A stretch of 64,000 nt of DNA from NCBI RefSeq assembly GCF_003018255.1, contig NZ_CP027440.1. One strand, 5' to 3'. Each line of letters starts with the position of its first letter. Within the stretch, counting starts at the first letter, position 1. This document shows, one piece after another, positions 50,801 to 53,800 of this stretch. A program made the position numbers. Origin of the DNA: Escherichia coli. GTDB taxonomy: Bacteria > Pseudomonadota > Gammaproteobacteria > Enterobacterales > Enterobacteriaceae.

Positions 50801-53800
50801 TTACGTCTGCTGGGCGAGAAAGGGGTGAATGCACTTGAACGCCTGATGGGATTGATTCTGGTGATGATGGCAACCCAGATGTTCCTCGACGGCATTCGAA
50901 TGTGGATGAAGGGGTAACGAGGAGAGTTTTTCGAAAAGAGCCCGGTAGCGTCACAACTACCGGGCGAACAAACTTAACTCAACAGCTGGAAAGCAATCAT
51001 CCCAACGATGGCACCAACAGTGCCGAGGATGGTTTCCATCATGGTCCAGGTTTTCAGCGTTTCGGCTTCGGTCGCGCCGGTAAATTTACCGAACAACCAG
51101 AAACCAGCGTCGTTAACGTGGCTGACAACAATCGAACCACCGGCGATACAAATCGACAGCGCCGCCATTTGCGCACCGGAGTAGTTCAGTTGTTCAATAA
51201 CCGGCATTACCAGTCCCACCGCCGTTAAACAGGCAACGGTGGCAGAACCCTGAATGATACGCACCGCCCCAGCCAGCACAAAGCAGGTGATGGCAATCGG
51301 CAGGCCCATGCCGGTTAACGCTTCGCCCAGTGCCGGACCTACGCCAGAGTCAACCAGCACCTGTTTGAACACGCCGCCTGCACCAATCACCAGCAGAATG
51401 ATCCCCGCCGGTTGCAGCGCGTGACCGCAAATCTCCATCACTTTATCTTTTGGCATGCCCTGACGCATTGCCAGGCCATAAATCGCTACCAGACAAGCAA
51501 CCAGAATCGCGGTAAACGGATGACCAATAAACTCGAACCATTCGTAAGCGGTAGAGCCTTCTGGCACAAAACGCGCGGCAATGGTTTTCAGCCCTACCAG
51601 CACCAGCGGCAACAGGATCAGCGACAGGCTGAATCCGAAAGATGGCATTTTGCCTTCGCCGAGATGTGGTTCGCTGATGTCGTCAGGAATATGCAGCTCC
51701 ACGTAGCGGCTGATGAAATTACCCCACAGCGGCCCGGCAATAATCATTCCCGGAATTGCCGCACACAGGCCAATCAGGATCATCCAGCCAAAGTCGGCAT
51801 TCATCTGCGATGCCAGCAGCATTGGCGCTGGTCCAGGCACCAGGAACGCAGCCGCGGCCGCCACGCCTGCGAATAATGGGATTACCAGCTTCACCAGGTT
51901 CGTACCGGTGTGGCGCGCCATTGAGAAAGCAACGCTAATCAGCAGAACAATCGCCACTTCAAAGAACAGCGGTAGCGCACAGACCAGCCCCGCAAGGCCG
52001 ATGGCATAATGCGCGCGGCTGTGACCGAAGGATTTGAGCATTTTGACGGCAATCTGATCGACTGCGCCGGTTTCATGTAAGATCTTGCCAAACATAGCTC
52101 CCAGGGCGACAACCACCGCCAGGAAGCCGAGGGTGCCTCCCATCCCTTTTTCCATCGTCGCTGCGATTTTATCGAGCGGCATACCGGAAAAAAGGCCAGC
52201 CCCCATGGACACCACCATCAAAGCCAGGAAAGCGTGCATACGCGCCTTCATGACTAAAAACAGCAGCAGTAAAACAGACCCTACTGCTGTTAAAACAAGC
52301 GTTAATGTAGTCACTACTTATTTGCCTTTTTTAATGACCTCAATGGTGCTTGCCACAACACCTTCCAGCGGTTGATCGATATCCACCACCAGTACATCGG
52401 TTTCGTCCGCACCCGGCTCCTGCAGCGTTTCAAACTGCGTCACCAACATTTGGGTTTTAAAGAAATGGCCTTTGCGCGCTTTCAGGCGGCTTTCAATCAC
52501 ATCAAAATCGCCTTTCAGGTAGATGAAAGAGAGATTCGGATTACCCGCGCGTAGCAAGTCGCGATAGTGTTTTTTCAGTGCAGAACAGACGATCAGCGAC
52601 ACTTTATTGGTGCGCTGCATAGCAAACGCGGCGTCGTTCAGCGCCTGCAACCACGGTTTGCGATCGTCGTCATTCAGTGGTTCGCCAGACGCCATTTTTT
52701 CGATATTGCAGCGCGGATGGAGGAAATCGCCATCAAGAAACGCGGCATGAAGTTGATGCGCCACTTCACTGGCGACCGCAGATTTGCCGCTGCCCGATAC
52801 GCCCATCAAGACGTAAATGTGGTGATCATGGTTAGTCGTGCTCAAAGTGGTGCCCCCACAATACAAGAATTAAAAATGTTACGGGTAACTGTTATCGGTA
52901 ACATTGTCCGGCCGGACAATATCAGAAGCAATATCCATCCGTGCCTTAAGTGTATAAGTGTGAGCTACTTCAAATTTGTGGGCTTAAATAGATCCGCCCG
53001 GTGACAAGGTGAAACCTAAATCTAACATTTTCGGTGTCACAGATTCGCCACGAATACGCGCCAGCAGGCGTTCAGCGCCGATACTGCCCATCCGCTCACG
53101 CGGCGTCAGTACGCTCGCCAACCGTGGTTCCATCACCTGACCAATGTCATGACCGTGGAAACCGGCAATCGCCATATCGTCAGGAACTTTTAACCCCAGA
53201 CGCTGACATTCAAACGCCGCGCCGACCGCCAGGTCATCGTTGGTACAGAACACGCCATCCAGCTGCGGATATTCCCGCCGCGCCTGGCGAATCAGTTCAA
53301 TACCGGAAGAGTAAGAAGAAGATTGCTCAACCATCACGCTATATGGCACCAGGCCTGCATCCAGCATCGCCTGTTCGTATCCCTTCTGTTTGATGATAGT
53401 ACGTTCGTCGAGACGTGCGCCGAGATAGGCAATGTGGCGATGCCCGCGAGCAATAATGGCGGTGGTCATCTGGCGTGCCGCTTCAAAGTTATCAAAACCG
53501 ACGGCAATATCGAGGCACGGCGACTTGCTGTCCATCAACTCCACCACCGGAATCCCCGCCACTTCAATCATCTTTAAGGTGCGCGGCGTGTGAGTACGTT
53601 CGGTGAGGATCAGTCCGTCGATATTCCAGGAGAGCATTGATTCGAGACGTTCTTGCTCCATTTCCGGTTTATAACCGTAGTGGGCCAGCATGGTCTGATA
53701 ACCGTGCGCGTCGGTGACGCTTTCGATTCCGCGTAATACTTCCGCAAAAACCTGGTTGGTGAGAGAAGGTAACAGGACGCCAATCGCCCGGCTGGTGGCG

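What the first reader, a model, noticed from the sequence alone, without database searches (positions are those of the whole stretch)
52318..52845. gntK appears to initiate at a TTG codon
The only way to obtain the canonical GntK N-terminus (STTNHDHH...) is to initiate at the TTG at 52845. The ORF-track start further upstream (also TTG) would add seven residues and places the P-loop unusually far from the N-terminus.
Basis: inference. Interest (0 to 1): 0.15.

Follow-up and report, generated by a model that had tools for sequence, protein, structure and literature searches.

The report
gntK starts at a TTG codon

Summary
The window is E. coli, 100% identical to strain DETEC-S792. The minus-strand ORF 52318..52866 opens at a TTG. 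A second in-frame TTG lies seven codons later at 52845..52843 and gives (M)STTNHDHH..., 175 aa. RefSeq annotates gntK at exactly 52318..52845 in the identical strain, and K-12 MG1655 (b3437) has the same 528-nt start. The PDB chain 1KNQ and the NCBIfam gluconokinase equivalog profile both begin at that residue.

In 80 Enterobacteriaceae species the homologous codon is TTG in 76 and ATG in 4, and never a synonymous Leu codon. The four other TTG-Leu codons in the gene survive as TTG in only 0-20 of 80. Sequence conservation with third-position wobble begins exactly at this codon. The seven upstream 'codons' translate to 38 different peptides, and 36 species have no in-frame upstream start at all.

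A GGGGG Shine-Dalgarno sits 7 nt upstream of 52845 (duplex -8.4 kcal/mol). The upstream TTG has none (+0.6).

Mildly interesting: the weak start is deeply conserved, and gntU also never uses ATG.

Novelty: already known. Interest: low.

The parts
52318..52845 (-). gntK coding sequence (175 codons + TAA), thermoresistant gluconokinase of the GntI system
   Evidence: RefSeq CDS of the 100%-identical strain maps to exactly these coordinates. NCBIfam NF008583 gluconokinase equivalog scores 371.8 bits against a cutoff of 265. It differs from PDB 1KNQ only at R46C and E100A.
52843..52845 (-). TTG initiation codon of gntK
   Evidence: The homologous codon is TTG in 76 and ATG in 4 of 80 species, with no synonymous Leu codon. 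The exact 30-mer context is present in 5417 of 5426 E. coli complete genomes. ATG, GTG and CTG variants of that 30-mer are absent.
52853..52857 (-). Shine-Dalgarno-like GGGGG, 7-nt spacer to the TTG
   Evidence: Duplex with the 16S 3' end is -8.4 kcal/mol. The homologous sites in 80 species average -8.1 (range -5.6 to -11.8) against a background of -2.7 +/- 2.3. The G at -10 is invariant, and identity to the window's G is 0.68-0.86 at -11, -9 and -8 and 0.54 at -12.
52864..52866 (-). Upstream in-frame TTG, the mechanical ORF start; most likely not used
   Evidence: It has no SD (+0.6 kcal/mol). The codon at this position is TTG in only 14 of 80 species, and 36 of 80 have no in-frame upstream start at all. 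The seven intervening codons give 38 different peptides.
52876..52904 (-). Two tandem GntR-operator-like half-palindromes, ATGTTACCGATAACA and GTTACCCGTAACAT, in the gntK leader/promoter
   Evidence: Conserved block in the Escherichia, Salmonella and Citrobacter alignment. GTTACC[CT]GTAAC was found upstream of the start codon in all 80 species loci, at distances that differ by non-multiples of three. The assignment to GntR rests on my recollection of the literature and was not tested here.
52956..52977 (-). CRP-site-like AAATTTGAAGTAGCTCACACTT upstream of gntK
   Evidence: Nearly invariant in the 8-sequence alignment. It resembles the CRP consensus TGTGA-N6-TCACA (established knowledge). Function was not tested here.
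50974..52314 (-). gntU (gluconate transporter), GTG start 4 nt after the gntK stop
   Evidence: ORF list and RefSeq annotation. The homologous start is GTG in 62, TTG in 18 and ATG in 0 of 80 species, and lies within -1..+6 nt of the gntK stop in 73 of 80.
52984..53979 (-). gntR (gluconate operon repressor), immediately upstream
   Evidence: ORF list and RefSeq annotation.

Best explanation
gntK, the thermoresistant gluconokinase gene of the E. coli gntRKU (GntI) locus, is translated from the UUG at 52845..52843. The 30S subunit is positioned by the GGGGG Shine-Dalgarno element 7 nt upstream, and initiator fMet-tRNA reads UUG with a first-position mismatch. The 175-aa product therefore begins Met-Ser-Thr-Thr-Asn-His-Asp-His-His. 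The TTG seven codons further upstream is simply the first start-type codon after a stop in the 5' leader and is not a functional start.

Shown here:
- the position of the codon
- the SD element
- the family-wide conservation pattern
- the agreement with curated annotation

Inferred:
- that UUG lowers initiation relative to AUG (general knowledge; the literature read here gives 10-100% of AUG, or an 8-12-fold lower rate)
- that a fairly strong SD partly compensates for this
For: Annotation and database agreement:
- RefSeq/PGAP annotates gntK at exactly 52318..52845 in the identical strain and at the homologous position in BL21. K-12 MG1655 b3437 has the same 528-nt CDS.
- PDB chain 1KNQ_A (175 aa, MSTTNHDHH...) aligns to residues 8-182 of the long ORF. 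Position 1 of the NCBIfam equivalog NF008583 profile aligns at residue 8.

Comparative evidence from 80 Enterobacteriaceae species loci:
- The codon is TTG in 76 and ATG in 4 (Buttiauxella x2, Yokenella, Trabulsiella), never CTN or TTA.
- The other four TTG-Leu codons of the gene are kept as TTG in only 5, 20, 0 and 9 of 80, mostly replaced by CTG.
- Only 5% of 4-fold-degenerate sites are as conserved as the first T of the start codon.
- Positions +1..+26 are 0.54-1.00 identical to the window, with the dips mostly at third codon positions, while -1..-30 are mostly 0.1-0.6 apart from the SD Gs and -2C. The upstream seven codons translate to 38 different peptides, whereas STTNHDHH is nearly invariant.
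- 36 of 80 species have no in-frame ATG/GTG/TTG upstream before a stop. Operator-to-start distances differ by non-multiples of 3.

Ribosome-binding site:
- SD duplex energy is -8.4 kcal/mol at 52845 against +0.6 at 52866. It is conserved across species (mean -8.1) against a background of -2.7.

Within E. coli:
- The exact 30-mer covering SD and TTG is in 5417 of 5426 complete genomes. ATG, GTG and CTG variants of it are absent.
Against: - The primary papers (Tong 1996; Izu 1996, 1997; Peekhaus & Conway 1998) are not held.
- gntK is not listed in the supplements of three genome-wide start-site or N-terminomics studies, and no supplementary files were held for a fourth. My explanation is that the gene is repressed without gluconate, but this was not checked.
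- My recollection that UniProt P46859 records a sequenced N-terminus (initiator Met removed, Izu et al. 1996) was not verified here.
- The PDB construct was built on the annotated start, so it is not independent evidence for that start.
- Within Escherichia the upstream in-frame TTG is conserved. Low-level initiation there cannot be excluded by sequence alone.
Confidence: 0.94

Rival explanations
1. Translation starts, solely or as a minor second isoform, at the upstream TTG 52866, giving a 182-aa GntK with an MYCGGTT extension.
For: It is the first start-type codon of the open frame. The 182-aa form is deposited in some older GenBank annotations, for example E. coli O157:H7 EC4115 and TW14588 and SMS-3-5. 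This TTG is present in the Escherichia loci and some Citrobacter loci.
Against: It has no Shine-Dalgarno (+0.6 kcal/mol). The codon at this position is TTG in only 14 of 80 species, and 36 of 80 have no upstream in-frame start. The seven extra codons show no protein-level conservation, giving 38 peptides in 80 species. The leader length varies out of frame. The 175-aa form was seen on at least 1000 contigs (the counting cap), against 25 and 1 for the two 182-aa forms.
Confidence: 0.04
2. Translation starts downstream at TTG 52809 or ATG 52806 (codons 13 and 14), giving a product of about 162-163 aa that begins just before the P-loop.
For: ATG 52806 is the first in-frame ATG. A 163-aa annotated form exists for E. 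albertii TW07627, labelled 'shikimate kinase'.
Against: There is no SD before either codon (+0.6 and +1.2 kcal/mol). Codons 2-12 are strongly conserved at the amino-acid level with mainly synonymous wobble variation, so they are translated. Codon 13 is CTG, not a start-type codon, in 73 of 80 species. The family profile TIGR01313 already begins at residue 11 of the 175-aa form.
Confidence: 0.01

Closest known systems
E. coli K-12 gntK (b3437; RefSeq NP_417894.2, named GNTK_ECOLI in UniRef; PDB 1KNQ), thermoresistant gluconokinase
   Same: It has the same locus (gntR-gntK-gntU), the same 528-nt CDS and the same TTG start. The 60 nt upstream are identical, including the GGGGG SD and the upstream in-frame TTG. 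The protein differs at 2 of 175 residues.
   Different: Only R46C and E100A. Both window residues also occur in other Enterobacteriaceae: C46 in 19 of 80 and A100 in 4 of 80.
UUG-initiated bacterial genes in general (about 3% of E. coli genes)
   Same: It is a near-cognate start read by initiator tRNA and preceded by an SD. Hecht et al. (bioRxiv 10.1101/063800) give AUG/GUG/UUG as 83/14/3% of E. coli genes, and group UUG with AUG and GUG as the canonical start codons, which initiate at 10-100% of AUG.
   Different: Belinky et al. 2017 (PMC5622118) find overall selection towards AUG. Here the TTG persists in 76 of 80 species of a whole family, which is more stable than that general trend suggests. 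The four ATG lineages have weaker SDs (-5.8 to -6.5 against a median of -8.4; n is too small to test).
[quoted passage not shown]
   Same: It is a non-ATG start retained on a carbohydrate-catabolism gene. That paper reports context-dependent fitness effects of such starts and lists gntR among the regulators with mixed ATG and non-ATG starts.
   Different: That study concerns regulator genes. gntK is an enzyme gene and is not mentioned there. No fitness or expression data for the gntK start codon were found.

Membership tests
GntK/IdnK-type gluconokinase (NCBIfam NF008583 equivalog; TIGR01313 subfamily) | Whole-protein score above the curated cutoff of the equivalog model | tested here: met
   NF008583 scores 371.8 bits against a cutoff of 265. 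TIGR01313 scores 238.7 against 113.75. The IdnK equivalog NF007336 scores 181.7, below its cutoff of 304.
GntK/IdnK-type gluconokinase (NCBIfam NF008583 equivalog; TIGR01313 subfamily) | P-loop (Walker A) GxxGxGKS near the N-terminus | tested here: met
   GVSGSGKS lies at residues 15-22 of the 175-aa product. It is invariant at the nucleotide level from codon 14 onward in 80 species.
GntK/IdnK-type gluconokinase (NCBIfam NF008583 equivalog; TIGR01313 subfamily) | Near-identity to a structurally and biochemically characterised member | tested here: met
   PDB 1KNQ_A 'Gluconate kinase', E = 2.3e-113, full-length alignment with 2 substitutions.
GntK/IdnK-type gluconokinase (NCBIfam NF008583 equivalog; TIGR01313 subfamily) | Genomic context gntR-gntK-gntU (GntI system) | tested here: met
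   ORFs and RefSeq annotation show gntR 52984..53979, gntK 52318..52845 and gntU 50974..52314, all on the minus strand.
Genuine UUG-initiated gene | Shine-Dalgarno element at 5-9 nt spacing from the proposed start | tested here: met
   GGGGG lies 7 nt upstream, at -8.4 kcal/mol, and is conserved in 80 species.
Genuine UUG-initiated gene | The orthologous codon varies only among start-type codons, not among synonymous Leu codons | tested here: met
   76 TTG, 4 ATG and 0 other. Internal TTG-Leu controls are replaced by CTG in most species.
Genuine UUG-initiated gene | Coding-type conservation begins at, and not before, the proposed start | tested here: met
   The conservation boundary falls at the TTG, and the upstream frame is not conserved.
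Genuine UUG-initiated gene | Experimentally determined N-terminus or a mapped initiating ribosome | not testable with these tools
   The primary papers are not held. gntK is absent from three genome-wide start-site or N-terminomics supplements, and none were held for a fourth study. I recall that UniProt P46859 cites N-terminal sequencing by Izu et al. 1996 (PMID 8925917; the citation was seen). That content was not verified here.

The most novel reading that the evidence does not exclude
The weak start codons may themselves be a selected feature of the GntI operon. gntK keeps TTG in 76 of 80 Enterobacteriaceae species, with perhaps only two independent switches to ATG, my estimate from the four ATG loci. 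The coupled downstream gene gntU uses GTG or TTG and never ATG in all 80. This could mean that translation of kinase and transporter is deliberately capped or made sensitive to IF3 levels or growth state, for example to limit 6-phosphogluconate/KDPG load on sudden gluconate exposure. The alternative is that TTG is a tolerated sub-optimal state.
Probability: 0.3. Interest if true: 0.3.

Novelty: already known. Interest (0 to 1): 0.06.

Why it matters
It matters little beyond annotation hygiene. The correct start defines the true N-terminus of a well-studied enzyme. It also shows that 'first start codon after a stop' ORF calling over-extends this gene by seven codons, an error still present in some deposited genomes (182-aa forms). 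The only wider point is modest. gntK and gntU are a clean example of non-ATG starts conserved across a whole bacterial family, which could be used to test whether weak start codons on catabolic operons are selected.

Tried and rejected
Searches that led nowhere:
- I looked for experimental start-site evidence. Tong 1996 (PMC178079 and PMID 8655507) and Peekhaus & Conway 1998 (PMC107313) are not held.
- Full-text searches for gntK with TTG, start codon or N-terminal returned nothing relevant.
- gntK/b3437 is absent from the supplements of INRI-seq, TRAINSPOTTER and tetracycline-TIS profiling. The Ribo-RET preprint has no held supplements.

Ideas considered and rejected:
- mRNA structure as a determinant of start choice. 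The -80..+40 region folds no better than shuffles (z = 0.45).
- The perfect 18-bp palindrome ATTGTCCGGCCGGACAAT (52903..52920) as a regulatory element. It is imperfect in K-12 and the other Escherichia loci and is found in 1 of 80 species loci. It is probably a strain-specific accident.
- The transcription start site as a discriminator. I could not retrieve it. The consensus promoter scan found nothing on the gntK strand. From the conserved CRP-like and -10-like blocks both TTGs probably lie inside the transcript, so it would not discriminate.
It is not decisive, because homologous PDB chains have their core starting at residues 21 and 29.

Full report
**Observation**

The minus-strand sequence around the finding reads ...TTCTTGTATTGTGGGGGCACCACT TTG AGC ACG ACT AAC CAT GAT CAC CAC.... 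The mechanical ORF list gives 52318..52866 (182 aa), opening at a TTG at 52866. The TTG at 52845..52843 is in frame, seven codons later. From it the product is (M)STTNHDHHIYVLMGVSGSGKS..., 175 aa, ending at TAA 52320..52318. This is 528 nt and matches the finding's coordinates. The next in-frame start-type codons are TTG 52809 and ATG 52806, directly before the P-loop.

**Identity of the locus**

A 901-nt query covering the region is 100% identical to E. coli DETEC-S792. It is present once in 5424 of 5426 complete E. coli genomes and is annotated gntR | gntK | gntU. The protein scores 371.8 bits on the NCBIfam gluconokinase equivalog NF008583, against a cutoff of 265. It aligns end to end with PDB 1KNQ 'Gluconate kinase' and differs from K-12 only at R46C and E100A.

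**Existing annotation**

RefSeq places gntK at locus positions 556..1083 of L001. These convert to window 52845..52318, the same start as the finding. BL21 has the same start. The curated K-12 MG1655 record also has it (b3437, 3577065..3577592, 528 nt), and its upstream 60 nt are identical to the window. The PDB chain and the equivalog profile both begin at residue 8 of the long ORF.

The 175-aa form was seen on at least 1000 contigs (the counting cap) and is named GNTK_ECOLI in UniRef. The 182-aa form survives in a few older submitter annotations (O157:H7 EC4115 and TW14588, SMS-3-5). A 163-aa form exists for E. albertii TW07627. The TTG start is therefore the established call, and the alternatives are annotation noise.

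**Independent comparative test**

One scan of species-representative genomes returned 80 Enterobacteriaceae loci. Protein identity to the window is 91-99% and nucleotide identity is 80-85%.

- **Start-codon variation.** The homologous codon is TTG in 76 species and ATG in 4 (two Buttiauxella, Yokenella, Trabulsiella). It is never a synonymous leucine codon.
- **Internal control.** The four other TTG-Leu codons of the window gene are retained as TTG in only 5, 20, 0 and 9 of 80 species, mostly becoming CTG. Only 5% of 4-fold-degenerate sites have a majority base at 95% or more, and the mean is 0.69. A codon that changes only to ATG is behaving as an initiator, not as a leucine.
- **Conservation boundary.** Conservation switches on exactly at this codon. 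Codons 2-9 are near-invariant, with variation mainly at third positions, and the peptide STTNHD(H/N)H... is nearly invariant. Upstream, only the SD guanines and -2C are conserved. The seven upstream 'codons' translate to 38 different peptides.
- **Upstream frame.** 36 of 80 species have no in-frame ATG/GTG/TTG upstream of the start before a stop, and the -7 codon is TTG in only 14. The distance from the GntR-operator-like motif to the start codon takes values such as 20, 24, 28-35, 41, 42, 45 and 74-87 nt, so the leader is not held in frame.

**Ribosome-binding site**

GGGGG at 52857..52853 lies 7 nt from the TTG. The predicted duplex with the 16S 3' end is -8.4 kcal/mol. This compares with +0.6 for the upstream TTG and +0.6 and +1.2 for the two downstream candidates. 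The homologous sites in 80 species average -8.1 (range -5.6 to -11.8) against a background of -2.7 +/- 2.3. The leader shows no unusual secondary structure (z = 0.45).

**Within E. coli**

The exact 30-mer spanning SD, TTG and codons 2-5 is present in 5417 of 5426 complete genomes. The same 30-mer with ATG, GTG or CTG in place of TTG is found in none.

**Mechanism**

This is ordinary SD-directed initiation at a near-cognate UUG by initiator tRNA. According to Hecht et al., UUG starts about 3% of E. coli genes and is one of the three canonical starts, which initiate at 10-100% of AUG (bioRxiv 10.1101/063800). A 2024 paper quotes 8-12-fold lower expression for GTG and TTG than for ATG (PMC11445065). 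Nothing suggests a non-standard mechanism.

Solved homologues have the family core beginning at chain residues 21 and 29. The conclusion does not depend on that argument.

**What could not be shown**

I could not retrieve any direct experimental N-terminus or start-site map.

- The primary gnt papers are not in the library.
- gntK is absent from the three genome-wide start-site or N-terminomics supplements that I could search, and no supplements were held for the Ribo-RET preprint. I suspect this is because those cultures lacked gluconate.
- From memory, UniProt P46859 records removal of the initiator Met based on protein sequencing by Izu et al. 1996. That citation exists (PMID 8925917, seen), but its content was not checked here.

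**Residual interest**

Belinky et al. report a general drift and selection towards AUG, and compensation of weak starts by stronger SDs (PMC5622118). Against that background the TTG of gntK is notably stable: 76 of 80 species, with perhaps two independent switches (my estimate from the four ATG loci). The four ATG lineages have weaker SDs (-5.8 to -6.5 against a median of -8.4), but n is far too small to test.

The downstream gene gntU also never uses ATG (GTG in 62, TTG in 18). Its start lies within -1..+6 nt of the gntK stop in 73 of 80 species. This is compatible with selection for capped expression of the operon, but equally with mere tolerance.

**Verdict**

The result is already known and of low interest.

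Noticed in passing
window 52312..52320 (gntK stop / gntU start); loci L003-L082: gntU also starts at a non-ATG codon: GTG at 52314, 4 nt after the gntK TAA. In 80 species the homologous start is GTG in 62, TTG in 18 and ATG in 0. It overlaps or lies within 6 nt of the gntK stop in 73 of 80, which suggests translational coupling.
   Followed up: partly
window 52264..52289 plus T-run to about 52254 (minus strand), inside gntU codons ~9-20: A terminator-like hairpin, CAGCAGTAGGG-TCTG-TTTTACTGCTG followed by CTGTTTTTAG, lies inside the 5' coding region of gntU. A hairpin (mean MFE -15.8 kcal/mol) plus a T-run is kept in 77 of 80 species, while the encoded peptide LTLVLTAVGSVLLLLFLVMKAR is almost invariant. 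This probably corresponds to the intra-operon attenuator that I recall being described for gntKU, but I did not verify that.
   Followed up: partly
window 52318..52845, codons 46 and 100: The window's GntK differs from K-12 and PDB 1KNQ at R46C and E100A. Across 80 species, residue 46 is S in 54, C in 19 and R in 3, so K-12's Arg is the minority state. Residue 100 is D, E, K or A. Neither change looks damaging.
   Followed up: yes
public protein records, corresponding to window 52318..52866 and 52318..52809: Three different gntK starts coexist in public databases. The 175-aa form is standard. The 182-aa form appears in O157:H7 EC4115 and TW14588 and in SMS-3-5. A 163-aa form labelled 'shikimate kinase' appears in E. 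albertii TW07627. The K-12 RefSeq protein is version NP_417894.2, so the record was revised once; I could not determine what changed.
   Followed up: no
window 52903..52920: There is a perfect 18-bp palindrome, ATTGTCCGGCCGGACAAT, just upstream of the GntR-operator-like repeats. K-12 and the other Escherichia loci have one or more mismatches (CCGGCTGG), and its core is found in only 1 of 80 species loci. It is probably a strain-specific coincidence.
   Followed up: yes
window 52956..52977 and 52876..52904: A CRP-site-like motif (AAATTTGAAGTAGCTCACACTT) and two tandem GntR-operator-like repeats are the most conserved non-coding blocks between gntR and gntK in Escherichia, Salmonella and Citrobacter. 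The sigma-70 consensus scan finds no promoter on the gntK strand, as might be expected for an activator-dependent promoter.
   Followed up: no
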